Notes: generated by a model from the sequence alone, not told the origin. A DNA stretch of 24,000 nt from Lolliginicoccus lacisalsi (GCF_014841105.1 NZ_JACYWE010000001.1:205517-229516), one strand, 5' to 3'. Positions 12,221-15,203 are shown, counted from the first letter of the stretch. Made by a program: numbers and translations.

Positions 12221-14481
12221 CGGTGCCGATGGTGCAGGCGTGGGATCCTGGCACGTTCGCGCGCGCCTCGCGCGTGATGGCCGACCGTGCTGATGCGTTG
12301 TTCAACCACGGCAAGCGCCTTCGCGACGCGTTCGACGCTCTTGGGGAGCAGTGGGATGGCGCCGCGCACACGGCCGCCGATGATCGCGCGAACGCCGAGT
12401 GGGGGCACGCCAAAGCAGTCGCGGTTCGAGTCGAGGAGACCGCGGACTCTCTCGCGCGGGCGACCTACGACCTAGGCAGCACGTGCGAGGCATTGCAGGC
12501 GCTCCTGCTCGATGCTCCCCGCAAGCGGCTGCTGGTCCGTGACGACTGGACCGTCACCGCGCTTGATCCAGAATCCCAAGCCCTGGCCGTGGCGGAGGCG
12601 CAGCGCATCACGGGACTCCTCGCTGATCTCGAGGCATTCGACGCGACGCTCGCCGCCGCGCTCACCAGCCTCGCCCGTGACGTCGACCAGCTCACCCCCA
12701 CCGACACCGGTATCACCCCGAGCGATTCCATCGAGCTCGCGAACCGGCTCCGCGCCGAGCTCGGCTCACCACTCGGCATCACGCCAGCGCTCGCTGCGGA
12801 GATCGGCGAGCACCTCGCCCAGCTCGGGCTCTCGCCTGCCCAGCTCGCCGCCACGGCCGCCGGGCAACCTGTCTCCCTCCCACCGGACCAGCTCGGTGCG
12901 CTGCGCGCATTCTTCACCGAGACCAGCGGTAGCGACCTCCGTAGCCTCTCGTGGCACTACGACAACGAAGCCGACCCAGGGGGCGATGAGCACCACACCG
13001 CGCTCGCCAATGCCCTGCTCCTCGTGTCGAATGAGCAGATCGGCGCGGGCCTCGACCACCATGGCGAGCTGCGCAGCCCCGGCGGATACCAGTATGTGCC
13101 CGACGATATCCGCGAGGCGCTCGCGAACCGGCGCGACGACGGCCTCCCCGGCATGACCACCGTCAAGCCACTGGCAGATCTACTTGCGACAGCTGATCCG
13201 CAGTACGCGCCCGGCGAGGAGCTCGGCGCCCAGCTCGTCCACGCCGCCGCCCCCATCGGAGCCCTCTCCGTCGAGGCCGAGCAGCTCGACGGACGCAACG
13301 CCACCCTCGAGTACCCGTTCCACAGGGACTACCCGGAGATCTCCGACACCCTGCTAGACGTGGGCCTGCGCAACACCGACAGTGCTGCCGCCATCCTCAC
13401 CGGCACCTACAGCCACGGCGCCGACCTGCCGTCCTACGACCGCGACACCACCGTTGCCCAGCTCCTCCTCCACGGTGGATCATCCGCCACCCCGCTCATC
13501 GACTGGATCGCGGACGACGCCACCAGCCCCGACCACGACACCGCCACACGCGCCGGCCAATCCGCCCACGGGCTCGCCCAGGCCATCGGCTCCGACACAA
13601 CCGGGATCGGCGGCAACAACCACCACGCGTTCCTCAACGTCCCCCACCACGACAACCACGCGATCGGCCACACCAGCCCCGAGACCACCCGCGCCATCGC
13701 CAACGCGCTGACCCCGTATATTCCGAATATGGGCCAAGTGAACCCAAACCTTCTTGCCACCGATGGATTTGGTGCAGTGTCACATGGAGAAGCTGTCCGA
13801 ATATTCTCGGTCATCGATAGCAATGCTGATGTGGCGGCAGACTTCAATGCCCGGGCATATCGATCTGTTTCTGACCTCGAAGTCATCTATATCGAAAGCC
13901 TGGTGGGTGGTAATGGAAATCGACACACTGACATCGGCAGCTACATTGGATGGATTCAAGGATATATTGAGCACGGCTATATCGTCGAAGCCGAGGATCG
14001 ATCCGAGGGCATTCTGTCAGCTGCCGCTTCGCAACGCGAAGCCATAGAGCGCGCTTCGACTATCGTAGGTTCCACCCTATCCTTTGCTCCTTATGTTGGG
14101 CCAGCGATGAGTGGCGCCAGCGCACTGCTTGGCGAGTCACTGCCTAGCCGAATCGCAGGCAATGTTGAGCCGATATACACTGGCGACATGATCAACTCAG
14201 ATCAAACAATAGCTCGGCACACCTACAATGCAATCGTGACGCTCGACGGCCTAGGGGCGATCTCGCCAGACACTAGACTGGATGCGTTTCGATCAGGTAC
14301 GGGTGACTTTCTTCCTTACAGTGAGGCGATCCTAGTCGACAATCCGCATAATAATGCACTGACTGGTAGCGCCAAGCTCGACTCGATTTCAATAAACTAC
14401 CTCACTGACAACGGATTCCCCATCTCCGATTATACTCAACGAATACAGAATGCCCGCCTAGAGATCGGCAAACTTAAATGA
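12211..14481 (+). CDS. large WXG-type (putative T7SS-signal N-domain) modular protein, 756 aa; alternative start at ATG 12229
   Basis: The N-terminal ~100 aa form a helix-turn-helix hairpin with W-x-G at GEQWDGAAH (nt 12352-12360), as in WXG100-like secretion domains. It overlaps the stop of the upstream small gene. The rest is long, helical and Ala/Leu/Asp-rich. The C-terminal third is encoded by low-GC DNA. Confidence 0.7.
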   Translation: MGLTVPMVQAWDPGTFARASRVMADRADALFNHGKRLRDAFDALGEQWDGAAHTAADDRANAEWGHAKAVAVRVEETADSLARATYDLGSTCEALQALLLDAPRKRLLVRDDWTVTALDPESQALAVAEAQRITGLLADLEAFDATLAAALTSLARDVDQLTPTDTGITPSDSIELANRLRAELGSPLGITPALAAEIGEHLAQLGLSPAQLAATAAGQPVSLPPDQLGALRAFFTETSGSDLRSLSWHYDNEADPGGDEHHTALANALLLVSNEQIGAGLDHHGELRSPGGYQYVPDDIREALANRRDDGLPGMTTVKPLADLLATADPQYAPGEELGAQLVHAAAPIGALSVEAEQLDGRNATLEYPFHRDYPEISDTLLDVGLRNTDSAAAILTGTYSHGADLPSYDRDTTVAQLLLHGGSSATPLIDWIADDATSPDHDTATRAGQSAHGLAQAIGSDTTGIGGNNHHAFLNVPHHDNHAIGHTSPETTRAIANALTPYIPNMGQVNPNLLATDGFGAVSHGEAVRIFSVIDSNADVAADFNARAYRSVSDLEVIYIESLVGGNGNRHTDIGSYIGWIQGYIEHGYIVEAEDRSEGILSAAASQREAIERASTIVGSTLSFAPYVGPAMSGASALLGESLPSRIAGNVEPIYTGDMINSDQTIARHTYNAIVTLDGLGAISPDTRLDAFRSGTGDFLPYSEAILVDNPHNNALTGSAKLDSISINYLTDNGFPISDYTQRIQNARLEIGKLK

Positions 14482-15203
14482 CTCCACCGCGAAACTCATA
14501 CACCTTCTTACTAGGTTCTCTAGCAGCATCAGCAATCCTCGTAGGATGTAGTTCAGGTAGCGTCGCGAACGACTTCGTCGATAAATGCATGACCGAGCCC
14601 GTGCCCGGAACTGCCCTTCTTCACGGCCTGGTTGGCGACCTCGAGGACTCCGAAGGGCTTGCCGGCATGACGGGAACCCTCGACCCCTACCTTGATGCTG
14701 AAGGAAAGCTCCTATCGCTCGAGGTCGGCATTTCAGTTGACAATCCAGTCAATAACGCGCTGACCGGATATGCGAAACTCGATGCTGCTCTCGTCAACTA
14801 CCTCACGTCCATCGACTATCCGCACCATCCGTTCGCCCTGGCGTACTCGAACCTGCGCGATGTGACACTCAACGGCCAGGAACTGCTCCCCGACGACCGG
14901 ATCCTGTACGCGCTCGCGGAGGCCAACGAAGCCGAACTGGCCGGCCCGAGCGCGGAGTTCCGCGACTTGCTGCCCACCTCGGCAGCGCTCGACCCGTTCC
15001 GCAGCACCGAGGGTGTCCTCGTGCCATTCGAGGATGCGATCGCCATCGCCAACCCCACCGACGACCCGATCATCGGCCACACGACCCTGACCCGCATCCT
15101 CACCGAGCACTTCACGCGCCTCGACATCCCCGCCCACGTCCTCGTCGATACCTACCGCGAGGCCACCACCGACTGCGTGCCCGAGGCCCCTCAAGGAGAG
15201 TAG
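14478..15203 (+). CDS. lipoprotein (241 aa) with two copies of a ~52-aa module shared with the upstream protein
   Basis: ATGA start/stop overlap with the upstream gene (14478-14481). Signal peptide plus lipobox: MTPPRNSYTFLLGSLAASAILVG-C (Cys24). Confidence 0.75.
   Translation: MTPPRNSYTFLLGSLAASAILVGCSSGSVANDFVDKCMTEPVPGTALLHGLVGDLEDSEGLAGMTGTLDPYLDAEGKLLSLEVGISVDNPVNNALTGYAKLDAALVNYLTSIDYPHHPFALAYSNLRDVTLNGQELLPDDRILYALAEANEAELAGPSAEFRDLLPTSAALDPFRSTEGVLVPFEDAIAIANPTDDPIIGHTTLTRILTEHFTRLDIPAHVLVDTYREATTDCVPEAPQGE

What the first reader, a model, noticed from the sequence alone, without database searches (positions are those of the whole stretch)
13715..14850. Abrupt mid-gene GC collapse spanning the effector C-terminus, the gene junction and the lipoprotein N-terminus
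I hand-counted GC in 60-nt windows. 13651-13710 is 72%, 13711-13770 is 48% and 13771-13830 is 48%. Values stay between 48% and 58% through 14430, fall to 47% at 14431-14490 and reach a minimum of 43% at 14491-14550. Values are mixed (48-65%) from 14551 to 14910, and 14911-14970 is back at 73%. The left edge is sharp, within about 10 nt at ...gcgctgacc|ccgtatattccgaatatg, and falls at about codon 501 of the 756-aa gene without breaking the frame. The block includes the ATGA coupling site and the signal peptide/lipobox of the downstream gene. This suggests horizontal replacement of a C-terminal domain together with its cognate downstream partner. That is the hallmark of polymorphic toxin/immunity diversification, here from a much lower-GC donor. 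The encoded ~255 aa have no fold I recognise, although there is a hydrophobic Gly/Ala-rich stretch, STLSFAPYVGPAMSGASALLG.
Basis: seen in the sequence. Interest (0 to 1): 0.8.

Follow-up and report, generated by a model that had tools for sequence, protein, structure and literature searches.

The report
Foreign tail spliced into ESX gene
About 1.1 kb of unusually AT-rich DNA replaces the end of a secreted-protein gene and the start of the neighbouring lipoprotein gene in the actinobacterium Lolliginicoccus lacisalsi, which suggests these two gene parts are exchanged between bacteria as one matched unit, much as toxin and antidote pairs are.

Summary
GC3 falls from 0.86 to 0.51 between 13717 (codon ~503 of the 756-aa gene) and ~14790 (codon ~104 of the lipoprotein gene). 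The log-likelihood ratio is 69, against at most 10 in shuffles.

The gene encodes a type VII (ESX) substrate-like protein: a WXG100-like hairpin, an EspA-like TPR_23 domain and a ~255-aa helical tail. An EspC/Tap-like gene lies upstream and an ATGA-coupled lipoprotein gene lies downstream.

The tail is not an orphan. Twenty-four relatives in Nocardiaceae and allies carry it at the same position. The sister species L. suaedae and L. levis have normal GC3 (0.75-0.88) over the same codons, so the collapse is specific to this lineage.

Similar junction-spanning blocks occur in Nocardia sp. NPDC058058 (by GC3) and between L. suaedae and L. levis (dS 1.2-2.0 against a background averaging about 0.27). 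Across the family, tails and N-terminal parts give conflicting trees, and the downstream lipoprotein type follows the tail.

The tail's last ~95 residues are homologous to the lipoprotein's two modules (hhalign E 4e-17).

The best reading is recombinational import of a co-adapted tail and lipoprotein-module cassette from an unsampled, lower-GC relative. Toxin/immunity function is plausible only by analogy with the 2026 'eat' loci. No toxin fold, donor or strain-level polymorphism was found.

The parts
11864..12220 (+). Small helical partner gene (118 aa), EspC/Tap-like. Shine-Dalgarno AAGGAGG at 11852-11858. YEVTE (YxxxE) at residues 98-102 (12155-12169).
   Evidence: Sequence read. Weak full-length matches to Pfam T7SS_ESX_EspC for this protein and its L. 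suaedae homologue (E 0.096 and 0.088, below threshold). A homologous small gene sits directly upstream in related loci, and YxxxD/E is present at the equivalent place in 7 of 12.
12211..14481 (+). Main gene (756 aa; NCBI aa from ATG 12229). It encodes a WXG100-like hairpin, an EspA-like TPR_23 domain and a family-specific helical tail.
   Evidence: ORF. Identical to NCBI 'TPR repeat region-containing protein' of Lolliginicoccus lacisalsi. Pfam TPR_23 at 3.2e-34.
12241..12459 (+). WXG100-like N-terminal hairpin (residues 11-83), with WxG (WDG) at residues 48-50 (12352-12360).
   Evidence: Pfam WXG100 E 0.0085 and TIGR03930 E 0.021. The family profile matches EsxB/ESAT-6 PDB chains at E 2.2e-6. 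W..G is kept in the family consensus.
12820..13506 (+). TPR_23 (EspA-like TPR) domain, residues 204-432.
   Evidence: Pfam PF23275, 119.3 bits against a cutoff of 27, covering 2-234 of 234 profile positions.
13687..13722 (+). Conserved junction motif TRAIANALTPYI (residues 493-504), the site of the left crossover. The GC3 change-point falls at 13710-13728.
   Evidence: Eleven consecutive residues are identical with L. suaedae, followed by divergence. P502 and Y503 are nearly invariant in the family. Change-point.
13717..14790 (+). Low-GC3 block (GC3 0.51 against 0.86). It spans tail residues 503-756, the ATGA junction, and lipoprotein residues 1 to ~104.
   Evidence: It is absent from the same codons of L. 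suaedae and L. levis.
13717..14478 (+). C-terminal tail domain (residues 503-756). It is all-alpha, with a low-confidence loop at residues 611-662 that contains the hydrophobic stretch 621-641 (14071-14133), and conserved E593/R597 (13987-14001).
   Evidence: AF2 model with pLDDT 72 and pTM 0.71. No PDB fold match. 24 homologues, always C-terminal in full-length (730-870 aa) proteins. Invariant columns.
14194..14478 (+). Terminal ~95-residue helical module of the tail (residues 662-756), homologous to the lipoprotein's two modules.
   Evidence: BLASTP 39% identity, E 3e-11 to lipoprotein residues 57-127, and 33% to residues 171-218. hhalign probability 98.85%, E 4e-17. Same helix pattern in both AF2 models.
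14478..14481 (+). ATGA stop/start overlap between the two genes.
14478..15203 (+). Lipoprotein gene (241 aa): signal peptide plus lipobox LVGC (residues 1-24, 14478-14549), module 1 (residues 37-133, 14586-14876) and module 2 (residues 134-236, 14877-15185).
   Evidence: ORF. Homologues in L. suaedae, L. levis, Antrihabitans and Nocardia keep a lipobox. AF2 pLDDT 78.6 with two repeats. Two invariant Cys residues in mature proteins. NCBI's call (P0009, 204 aa) starts at Met38 and omits the signal peptide.
14796..14810 (+). Conserved NYLTS motif in lipoprotein module 1, at the right crossover. The GC3 change-point falls at 14789-14801.

Best explanation
The locus is a three-gene operon of the type VII (ESX) substrate kind. 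It has a small EspC/Tap-like helical partner (with YxxxE), then a large protein made of a WXG100-like hairpin, an EspA-like TPR_23 domain and a ~255-residue helical tail, and then a translationally coupled lipoprotein built of two copies of the ~95-residue module that also ends the tail.

The GC collapse is the footprint of one recombination event. Crossovers occurred at two conserved motifs: TRAIANALTPYI in the big gene and NYLTS in lipoprotein module 1. That event replaced the resident tail, the junction, the signal peptide and most of lipoprotein module 1 with a divergent allele of the same sequences, taken from an unsampled relative with much lower GC.

The tail, especially its terminal module, and lipoprotein module 1 travel together because they are a co-adapted, probably physically interacting, pair. 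The most likely role is a secreted envelope-acting effector and its lipoprotein inhibitor or immunity protein, as in the ESX-4 'eat' loci.

Shown: the compositional block and its edges, its absence in sister species, the homology of the tail module and lipoprotein modules, family-wide tail/N-part tree conflict, and partner type following the tail. Inferred: the direction and source of transfer, secretion by a T7SS, physical interaction, and toxicity/immunity. My rough confidences are 0.8 for recombinational import, 0.75 for a T7SS substrate operon, and 0.45 for effector-immunity. The overall figure of 0.6 is for the core claim that a co-adapted cassette was imported by recombination.
For: Block statistics. 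GC3 is 0.51 inside against 0.86 outside, LLR 69 against at most 10 in shuffles, with edges resolved to about 20 nt.

Sister species. The same codons in L. suaedae and L. levis have GC3 0.75-0.88. FYMINK residues make up 0.258 of the L. lacisalsi tail against 0.20-0.23 in the sisters, whereas its N-part is 0.108 against 0.165.

Divergence. Identity to L. suaedae drops from 0.63 (residues 401-500) to 0.35 (501-600). In the lipoprotein it is 0.35 (41-120) and 0.61 (161-241). The identity advantage of L. suaedae over the outgroups falls from +23 points (CI 18-29) in the N-part to +4 (CI -2 to 10) in the tail.

Crossovers. Both sit at locally conserved motifs. No tRNA, RNA family or convincing repeat lies at the edges.

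Independent cases with the same footprint. Nocardia sp. NPDC058058 has a block from codon 560 of the big gene to codon 145 of the lipoprotein gene (GC3 0.62 against 0.83, LLR 30). That protein's N-part groups with P0015/P0016 (99%) while its tail groups with P0003/P0004 (99%), with breakpoints at alignment positions 503-522. L. suaedae against L. levis gives dS 2.0, 1.2 and 1.9 across the junction, against a background averaging about 0.27.

Partner. The lipoprotein type (two-module, DUF3558-like, or a 253-266-aa type) follows the tail clade, not the N-part clade. Antrihabitans has a second tandem lipoprotein.

Module homology. E 3e-11 by BLASTP and E 4e-17 by hhalign.

T7SS link. TPR_23 at 3.2e-34. 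The family profile matches EsxB at 2.2e-6. WxG and YxxxE are present. EspG, EspC and DUF3558 genes occur in related loci.

Literature. The same locus grammar (small helical Tap genes, N-helical carrier plus payload, downstream lipoprotein inhibitor EatI) was shown experimentally for ESX-4 in M. abscessus, and 47% of such payloads are of unknown function (PMC13444075). A WXG100 / EspA-like / lipoprotein-like operon belongs to the M. abscessus SigM/ESX-4 regulon (PMC13491425).
Against: No donor or close relative of the block was found. Searches covered 1.84 billion protein representatives (best 38% identity), JGI metagenomes, viral contigs, phages and plasmids.

The L. lacisalsi and L. suaedae tails are still sisters (100% NJ bootstrap), so any donor belonged to the same subfamily.

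If segment distances are normalised by the L. suaedae-L. levis distance (my arithmetic), the tail is not more divergent than the N-part (ratios 5.5-7.3 against 7.4-7.5). Protein divergence alone therefore does not prove a foreign origin.

In most loci GC3 is somewhat lower in the last 85 codons of the big gene and the first 50 codons of the lipoprotein gene. Part of the junction dip may therefore be a general property of signal-peptide or 5' regions.

No toxin domain or fold was found. Tails across the family are one homologous domain, not alternative folds.

Thirteen sequences from the 134-member >=90%-identity cluster (R. erythropolis and allied Rhodococcus isolates) show no excess tail variation, with the caveat that this cluster excludes divergent alleles by construction.

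No ESX core genes lie in the 24-kb window. There is only one genome of the species, and no reads were available to verify the assembly.
Confidence: 0.6

Rival explanations
1. The origin is the same (a recombined cassette), but the pair is not toxin and immunity. The big protein is a non-toxic ESX-secreted surface or envelope protein, like EspA/EspE. The lipoprotein is its anchor, receptor or assembly partner, binding through module-to-module contacts. Diversification is then driven by phage, kin recognition or other surface selection.
For: The tail's terminal module is homologous to the lipoprotein modules, which is more typical of assembly partners than of toxin/immunity pairs. All tails are one all-alpha family with no catalytic fold match. 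The N-part is EspA-like, and EspA-type proteins are secretion-associated rather than known toxins (Pfam description). R. erythropolis-cluster sequences show no tail polymorphism. DUF3558 lipoproteins are co-expressed with many ESX substrates of unknown role (PMC13491425).
Against: The locus grammar matches experimentally shown effector/lipoprotein-inhibitor loci (PMC13444075). Partner families differ between tail clades, and a tandem second lipoprotein exists. Both are typical of immunity genes.
Confidence: 0.3
2. There was no transfer. The block is vertically inherited and became AT-rich in place. Possible causes are relaxed or altered codon selection, selection for weak mRNA structure and translational coupling, an internal promoter, or binding of an AT-seeking silencer such as Lsr2.
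For: Most family loci show somewhat lower GC3 in the last 85 codons of the big gene and the first 50 of the lipoprotein gene. Two promoter-like sites on the coding strand fall inside the block, at 13920-13947 and 14405-14433 (3 sites in the region on both strands against 0.9 expected). Rate-normalised protein divergence of the tail is not excessive (arithmetic). The tails of L. lacisalsi and L. suaedae are still sisters.
Against: A step of 0.35 in GC3 within about 20 nt at both ends is not what gradual drift produces. The same codons in both sister species have GC3 0.75-0.88. Amino-acid composition shifts too. The equivalent block between L. suaedae and L. levis has saturated dS, which indicates imported alleles. 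The 1.07-kb extent is far larger than a coupling site or promoter needs.
Confidence: 0.1
3. The block came from gene conversion with a paralogous copy elsewhere in the same genome, for example on an island or plasmid of lower GC, rather than directly from another organism.
For: Related genomes hold extra, truncated or fragmented copies: L015 is an N-truncated copy next to an integrase fragment, and L014 holds fragments inside an RM/Dnd island. The operon lies in a variable region containing an IS30-like transposase, a PIN/HTH pair and MADS-like defence genes.
Against: No second L. lacisalsi protein with this tail appeared in the protein searches, and no second copy exists in the window. The rest of the genome could not be read here. 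The ultimate source would still be foreign, lower-GC DNA.
Confidence: 0.1
4. The block is an assembly artefact: a chimera between the genome and reads from a contaminating lower-GC relative.
For: The species has a single draft assembly, and the protein was seen on one contig only.
Against: Two in-frame joins 1.07 kb apart, each inside a conserved motif, keep both reading frames and domain collinearity. Sequences that differ this much share no long exact words an assembler could use to join them. The same kind of block occurs in an independent Nocardia genome.
Confidence: 0.03

Closest known systems
ESX-4 'eat' loci of mycobacteria: TapA1/TapA2, EatA, EatI (Benedict et al. 2026, PMC13444075)
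   Same: The gene order is the same: small helical accessory gene(s), then a large protein with an elongated helical N-terminal carrier and a C-terminal payload, then a small downstream lipoprotein that was left unannotated or mis-annotated. The order is Mycobacteriales. That paper reports many such loci with payloads of unknown function and lipoprotein partners for envelope-acting payloads.
   Different: The payload here is an all-alpha tail with no GH183 or any other recognised domain. The carrier contains an EspA-like TPR_23 domain. There is one accessory gene rather than two. The lipoprotein is built of two modules homologous to the payload's own C-terminal module, and nothing comparable was found for EatI in the sections of that paper I read. 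Secretion, toxicity and inhibition are untested here.
M. abscessus SigM-regulon operon Mab_1286c (WXG100 family), Mab_1285c (EspA-like), Mab_1284c (lipoprotein-like) (PMC13491425)
   Same: The annotation pattern of the three genes is the same, and it is linked to an ESX-4-focused regulon. DUF3558 lipoproteins recur next to ESX substrates there, as they do in several loci of this family.
   Different: I could not retrieve those sequences, so homology of Mab_1285c/1284c to this tail and lipoprotein was not tested. That paper assigns no function.
Polymorphic toxin systems (Rhs, CDI, WXG/LXG-type T7SS toxins; Zhang et al. 2012, PMC3482391) and the Rhs GC-rich core / AT-rich tip discontinuity (summarised in PMC7259588)
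   Same: A constant 5' gene body carries a recombining 3' tip that brings the start of the downstream partner gene with it in a single event. A sharp compositional break occurs at a conserved motif. The partner co-varies with the tip.
   Different: The tips here are divergent alleles of one domain family (20-54% identity), not unrelated toxin folds. Only half of the partner gene was exchanged. The window holds no standalone cassette or string of orphan partners. The sampled R. erythropolis-cluster sequences show no strain-level polymorphism. Toxicity is unknown.
Firmicute T7SSb LXG toxins with Lap partners and envelope-facing immunity proteins (the Lap/LXG locus grammar is summarised in PMC13444075; I recall the TelC/TipC pair from memory and from the abstract of PMC6193138, which I did not read), and recombination among tandem immunity paralogues (PMC9484751, abstract only)
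   Same: A helical N-terminal targeting domain is combined with a small helical partner and a downstream immunity gene. Homologous recombination shapes the immunity genes. Antrihabitans has tandem paralogues of the partner.
   Different: The phylum and T7SS subtype differ, there is no LXG domain, and there is no sequence similarity.
EspA/EspC (and EspE/EspF) of Mycobacterium tuberculosis
   Same: The TPR_23 domain is the EspA-like Pfam family. The small neighbour weakly resembles EspC.
   Different: In the known pair EspA precedes EspC, and EspA (392 aa, from memory) has no such tail or lipoprotein partner. The EspC match is below the Pfam threshold.

Membership tests
T7SS (ESX) substrate of the WXG100 / EspA-like kind | N-terminal WXG100-type helical hairpin with a WxG motif | tested here: met
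   Single-sequence matches are weak (Pfam E 0.0085, TIGR03930 E 0.021). The 16-sequence family profile matches EsxB/ESAT-6 PDB chains at E 2.2e-6 over positions 15-100. WDG lies at residues 48-50, and W..G is kept in the family consensus.
T7SS (ESX) substrate of the WXG100 / EspA-like kind | EspA-like TPR_23 domain above Pfam gathering score | tested here: met
   PF23275 at 119.3 bits against a cutoff of 27, with full profile coverage.
T7SS (ESX) substrate of the WXG100 / EspA-like kind | Adjacent small helical partner that supplies a YxxxD/E motif (composite signal) | tested here: inconclusive
   YEVTE is present at residues 98-102 of the 118-aa upstream protein, and YxxxD/E is present in 7 of 12 family partners. 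The EspC Pfam match is below threshold (E 0.096).
T7SS (ESX) substrate of the WXG100 / EspA-like kind | ESX core or chaperone genes in the neighbourhood | tested here: not met
   No Ecc, MycP or EspG genes lie in the 24-kb window. Related loci do carry EspG, EspC, YbaB and DUF3558 genes.
T7SS (ESX) substrate of the WXG100 / EspA-like kind | Export dependent on EccC/T7SS | not testable with these tools
   This needs a secretion assay in wild type against an eccC mutant.
Polymorphic toxin-immunity system (sensu Zhang et al. 2012) | Constant N-terminal trafficking part with C-terminal tips exchanged by recombination | tested here: met
   Bipartitions conflict with 99-100% bootstrap between the N-part (201-500) and the tail (501-756). 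GC3 blocks occur in L. lacisalsi and Nocardia. The tips, however, are alleles of one domain family.
Polymorphic toxin-immunity system (sensu Zhang et al. 2012) | Tip is a recognisable toxin domain or demonstrably toxic | tested here: not met
   There is no Pfam, NCBIfam or PADLOC family and no Foldseek PDB match at E<=0.001. Toxicity itself is not testable here.
Polymorphic toxin-immunity system (sensu Zhang et al. 2012) | Cognate partner gene immediately downstream, co-varying with the tip | tested here: met
   The downstream lipoprotein overlaps or abuts the main gene in the loci examined. Three or more lipoprotein types track the tail clades rather than the N-part clades. Immunity function is untested.
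Polymorphic toxin-immunity system (sensu Zhang et al. 2012) | Standalone tip/partner cassettes or strings of orphan partners | tested here: inconclusive
   The window has none. Antrihabitans has one extra tandem lipoprotein. N. aurantiaca has an N-truncated copy plus lipoprotein beside an integrase fragment, and N. transvalensis has gene fragments.
Polymorphic toxin-immunity system (sensu Zhang et al. 2012) | Tip polymorphism between strains of one species | tested here: not met
   Among 13 sequences from R. erythropolis and allied Rhodococcus isolates, tail identity is 97.7-100% and N-part identity is 96.4-100%. The sample comes from one >=90%-identity cluster and is therefore biased. No other L. 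lacisalsi strain is available.
'eat'-type ESX-4 effector locus (PMC13444075) | tap-like small helical gene(s), a helical-carrier protein with C-terminal payload, and a downstream partner with a lipoprotein signal | tested here: met
   Gene order and features are shown.
'eat'-type ESX-4 effector locus (PMC13444075) | EatA GH183 arabinanase payload / EatI fold | tested here: not met
   There is no glycoside hydrolase domain. The lipoprotein profile and model match nothing in the PDB. This is the same locus class, not the EatA/EatI family.

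The most novel reading that the evidence does not exclude
The last ~95 residues of the secreted protein and both halves of its lipoprotein partner are copies of one undescribed helical module. 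The lipoprotein recognises (neutralises or docks) the secreted protein by module-to-module pairing, meaning the partner arose by duplication of the effector's own terminal module. Specificity is then reset by swapping the effector module and lipoprotein module 1 together in a single recombination event, while lipoprotein module 2 stays with the host. This would be a new effector-partner recognition principle for type VII systems of Mycobacteriales.
Probability: 0.2. Interest if true: 0.75.

Novelty: new variant of a known kind. Interest (0 to 1): 0.55.

Why it matters
Type VII-secreted antibacterial effectors of Mycobacteriales were shown experimentally only in 2026, and about half of the predicted payloads have no known function (PMC13444075). 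This locus gives a clean natural experiment for one such unknown payload family. The recombination footprints, three independent ones, mark which parts must stay together: the tail's terminal module and the first module of the lipoprotein. That predicts the interaction surface and the determinants of specificity, and both predictions can be tested directly by binding and swap experiments. It also shows that cassette exchange of the Rhs/CDI style, with a compositional break at a conserved motif, operates in ESX substrate genes of high-GC actinobacteria. Finally, GC3 change-point scans could be used to find other such effector/partner pairs.

Tried and rejected
1. The word-indexed protein search with the tail alone found nothing. 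With the full protein and with a 16-sequence alignment it found only the protein itself and the L. suaedae homologue. That index was too insensitive, so the exhaustive phmmer search was needed.

2. The donor hunt was negative everywhere: no relative above 38% identity among protein representatives, two JGI metagenome scans, viral contigs, phage records, and plasmids by protein and DNA.

3. The genome scan with the 13-tail alignment failed because the alignment was too diverse. A 4-sequence alignment returned only L. suaedae, L. levis and Antrihabitans. The L. lacisalsi genome itself was not returned, so paralogues elsewhere in the genome could not be checked.

4. Recent gene conversion between the tail module and lipoprotein module 1 is rejected. 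Amino-acid identity is 39% but third-position identity is only 31%, and the modules cluster by position rather than by species.

5. A transmembrane or pore-forming reading of the hydrophobic stretch 621-641 is rejected as unsupported. The stretch is not hydrophobic in relatives, it is modelled with low confidence, and the SmhA/ClyA Foldseek rows have E>2.

6. An insertion by a mobile element is rejected. No tRNA, RNA family or convincing flanking repeats were found. The one 17-nt inverted pair near the edges is probably chance.

8. A common breakpoint at the PYI motif for all family mosaics is not supported. Pairwise breakpoints range over alignment positions ~350-600, and only some fall at 503-522.

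Full report
**Observation.**
The drop lies mostly at third codon positions. In 30-codon bins GC3 is 0.73-0.97 up to codon 510 of ORF 12211-14481 and 0.37-0.60 after it. It remains low through the first ~120 codons of ORF 14478-15203.

A two-breakpoint likelihood fit on GC3 places the block at 13717 (2-lnL interval 13710-13728) to ~14787-14801. GC3 is 0.51 inside and 0.86 outside. The LLR is 69.3, against at most 10 in shuffles. No other 1.1-kb stretch of the window is below 0.62 GC, whereas this one is 0.527. The ATGA overlap, the unbroken frame and the lipobox LVGC are as described.

**What the genes are.**
The 756-aa protein is identical to an NCBI 'TPR repeat region-containing protein' of Lolliginicoccus lacisalsi.
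- It has an EspA-like TPR_23 domain (Pfam 3.2e-34, residues 204-432).
- It has a weak WXG100 match at residues 11-83. A profile of 16 family members matches solved EsxB/ESAT-6 chains at E 2.2e-6, and WDG sits at residues 48-50.
- Directly upstream, behind an AAGGAGG ribosome-binding site, lies a 118-aa gene (11864-12220). It has a C-terminal YEVTE (YxxxE) motif. YxxxD/E occurs in 7 of 12 homologous partners. It also gives sub-threshold but full-length EspC matches in two species.
- Downstream, the 241-aa product is a lipoprotein. NCBI's 204-aa call starts at Met38 and loses the signal peptide, but the homologues all keep a lipobox.
- Related loci carry EspG, EspC, YbaB-like and DUF3558 genes.

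This is the grammar of a type VII (ESX) substrate operon. No ESX core gene lies in the window itself.

**The tail is a conserved family domain, not an orphan.**
An exhaustive phmmer search of 1.84 billion representatives found 24 proteins with the tail. In the full-length (730-870 aa) TPR_23 proteins it is always at the C-terminus. These come from Lolliginicoccus, Antrihabitans, Nocardia and Rhodococcus. The closest, from L. suaedae, is collinear over 99% of the protein (42% identity overall, 36-38% in the tail).

AlphaFold2 models the tail as all-alpha (pLDDT 72) with a low-confidence loop at residues 611-662. Foldseek finds no PDB analogue. Pfam, NCBIfam and PADLOC find nothing.

The last ~95 residues of the tail are homologous to two modules that make up the lipoprotein.
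- BLASTP gives 39% identity and E 3e-11 to lipoprotein residues 57-127, and 33% to residues 171-218.
- hhalign between the two family profiles gives probability 98.85% and E 4e-17.
- The AF2 model of the lipoprotein (pLDDT 78.6) shows the same helix pattern twice. It has no PDB analogue.
- Third codon positions of the two most similar copies agree at only 31%, and the modules cluster by position rather than by species. The similarity is therefore old and kept at the protein level. It is not a recent gene conversion.

**Is the low-GC block lineage-specific?**
Yes. In L. suaedae (L001) and L. levis (L003) the same tail codons have GC3 0.75-0.88, and only the last ~40-70 codons and the start of the lipoprotein gene are lower. 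Amino-acid composition moves the same way. The L. lacisalsi N-part has fewer AT-codon residues than its sisters (0.108 against 0.165), but its tail has more (0.258 against 0.20-0.23).

Identity to L. suaedae steps from 0.63 (residues 401-500) to 0.35 (501-600). In the lipoprotein it rises from 0.35 (41-120) to 0.61 (161-241). The advantage of L. suaedae over outgroup proteins is +23 identity points (CI 18-29) in the N-part but +4 (CI -2 to 10) in the tail, although the two tails remain sisters.

Two cautions apply. When I normalise by the L. suaedae-L. levis distance of each segment (arithmetic), the tail is not excessively divergent, so the protein data alone are not decisive. The strong evidence is the sharp, two-sided GC3 step that the sisters lack. 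Both edges fall at locally conserved motifs, TRAIANALTPYI and NYLTS, as expected for homology-guided crossovers. There are no tRNA genes, RNA families or meaningful repeats at the edges.

**The same footprint recurs.**
1. Between L. suaedae and L. levis, which are ~90% identical elsewhere, dS jumps from a background averaging about 0.27 to 2.0, 1.2 and 1.9 in codons 721-760 of the big gene and 1-80 of the lipoprotein gene, and dN rises too. This is an imported allele spanning the junction.
2. In Nocardia sp. NPDC058058 (L006), GC3 drops from 0.83 to 0.62 from codon 560 of the big gene to codon 145 of the lipoprotein gene (LLR 30). The left edge is about 12 codons before the homologous ALAPFI motif. 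This protein's N-part groups with P0015/P0016 (99% bootstrap) while its tail groups with P0003/P0004 and the Lolliginicoccus tails (99%). Pairwise breakpoints fall at alignment positions 503-522.
3. P0016 carries an N-part of one clade and a tail of another (100%).

Across 13 loci the N-to-tail GC3 drop is largest in L. lacisalsi (-0.36), then -0.22, -0.19 and -0.11 in three others, and near zero elsewhere.

**The partner follows the tail.**
The gene downstream is a lipoprotein in the 12 loci where it could be read; in P0016's locus only its first 23 codons are on the contig. It is of at least three kinds:
- the two-module type, found with tails of the L. lacisalsi / L. suaedae / P0003-P0005 clade;
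- a DUF3558-like type, found with P0007, P0008 and P0012;
- a 253-266-aa type, found with P0011 and P0015.

Proteins that share one N-part clade (P0004, P0005, P0015) have different partners that match their tails. Antrihabitans carries a second, 39%-identical two-module lipoprotein in tandem.

**Interpretation.**
The best-supported account is a single recombinational replacement. A divergent allele from an unsampled, lower-GC relative replaced the tail, the junction, the signal peptide and most of lipoprotein module 1. All three footprints keep the tail's terminal module and lipoprotein module 1 together, while module 2 stays with the resident lineage. I infer that those two homologous modules are the co-adapted, probably contacting, parts.

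For function, the closest experimentally grounded model is the ESX-4 'eat' locus. There, small Tap proteins, a helical-carrier effector and a downstream lipoprotein inhibitor were demonstrated, and about 47% of similar payloads are of unknown function (PMC13444075). An operon annotated WXG100 / EspA-like / lipoprotein-like belongs to the M. abscessus SigM/ESX-4 regulon (PMC13491425). The compositional break at a conserved motif, together with the downstream partner, parallels the Rhs GC-rich core / AT-rich tip and the single-event tip-plus-immunity replacement of polymorphic toxins (PMC7259588, PMC3482391).

**Limits.**
- Toxicity, immunity, secretion and binding are all untested.
- The tails are alleles of one domain rather than alternative toxin folds.
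- Only half of the partner was exchanged.
- The window holds no orphan cassettes.
- Thirteen sequences from one >=90%-identity cluster (R. erythropolis and allied Rhodococcus isolates) show no extra tail variation.
- No donor was found in any collection.
- A non-toxic secreted-protein/lipoprotein-anchor complex remains a serious rival for function.
- In-place AT enrichment, intragenomic conversion and assembly chimera are weaker rivals for origin.

**Verdict.**
This is a new variant of a known kind: cassette exchange in a type VII substrate/lipoprotein operon, with an unusual homology between the effector's terminal module and its partner.

Noticed in passing
window 14478-14588: The public annotation (P0009, 204 aa) starts the lipoprotein at Met38 (MTEPVPG) and so loses the signal peptide and lipobox LVGC. 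Homologues in L. suaedae, L. levis, Antrihabitans and Nocardia all have a lipobox, which supports the ATGA-coupled start at 14478.
   Followed up: yes
window 12211-12231: The start of the main gene is ambiguous: GTG 12211 (overlapping the upstream stop at 12218-12220), GTG 12223, or ATG 12229 (NCBI's 750-aa call). Codon numbering shifts by at most 6.
   Followed up: partly
window 4144-6648 (-): An 833-aa ORF matches two components of the MADS anti-phage system in one protein: mad3 at 7.9e-69 and mad8 at 1.2e-30. The HTH protein at 11228-11821 weakly matches mad1 (2.1e-6). The region ~5.5-12 kb has lower GC (0.61-0.66) than the flanks, so the operon lies beside a defence/variable region.
   Followed up: partly
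window 7869-9104 (+): A transposase-like gene (HTH_38 plus rve integrase core) has GC 0.75-0.77, higher than its surroundings.
   Followed up: partly
window 10204-11821 (-): A 411-aa PIN_3-domain protein with a long C-terminal extension overlaps an HTH_17 (excisionase-type) protein. The pair is toxin-antitoxin-like and lies divergent from, and directly upstream of, the operon. In L. suaedae and L. levis this position instead holds a 600-aa Gly/Ala/Pro-rich protein, so the operon's context is not syntenic.
   Followed up: no
L001 12089-12550 and L003 7051-7251: L. suaedae and L. levis, ~90% identical over most of the big protein, have saturated synonymous divergence (dS 1.2-2.0 against a background averaging about 0.27) across the end of the big gene and the first ~80 codons of the lipoprotein gene. 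This is a second recombination block at the same junction.
   Followed up: yes
L006 5678-6970 (Nocardia sp. NPDC058058): There is an independent mid-gene GC3 drop (0.83 to 0.62, LLR 30) starting ~12 codons before the homologous ALAPFI motif and ending in the lipoprotein gene. It coincides with a tail whose phylogeny conflicts with its N-part.
   Followed up: yes
L004 7777-8475 (Antrihabitans stalactiti): A second two-module lipoprotein (232 aa, 39% identical to the first) lies in tandem right after the first one, resembling tandem immunity paralogues.
   Followed up: partly
L015 2361-4884 (Nocardia aurantiaca); L014 5152-6733 (Nocardia transvalensis): L015 holds an N-terminally truncated copy (475 aa, no WXG part) with a type-C lipoprotein, next to a phage-integrase fragment. 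L014 holds three short fragments of the gene inside a type I RM / DndB island. These may be orphan or decaying cassettes.
   Followed up: partly
window 14550-15200 (mature lipoprotein): Two cysteines are invariant in all five two-module lipoproteins aligned (mature positions 13 and 209). They lie near the two ends of the chain, which suggests a disulphide and an extracytoplasmic location.
   Followed up: no
window 13987-14001 and tail alignment A1: The tail has a few invariant polar residues across 13 diverse members (T517, E593, R597, Y672, and near-invariant N546). This could be an active or binding site in a domain of unknown function.
   Followed up: no
window 15309-24000 (-): A hydrogenase maturation cluster (HypE-like AIRS, HypD, HypC, HypF, HycI protease) is flanked by DUF6390 (15309-16175) and DUF6084 (23359-23994) genes. 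It converges on the lipoprotein gene.
   Followed up: no
window 13776-13792 / 14853-14869: A 17-nt inverted pair (82% complementary) lies about 60 nt inside the left edge and 60 nt beyond the right edge of the block. It is probably chance.
   Followed up: no
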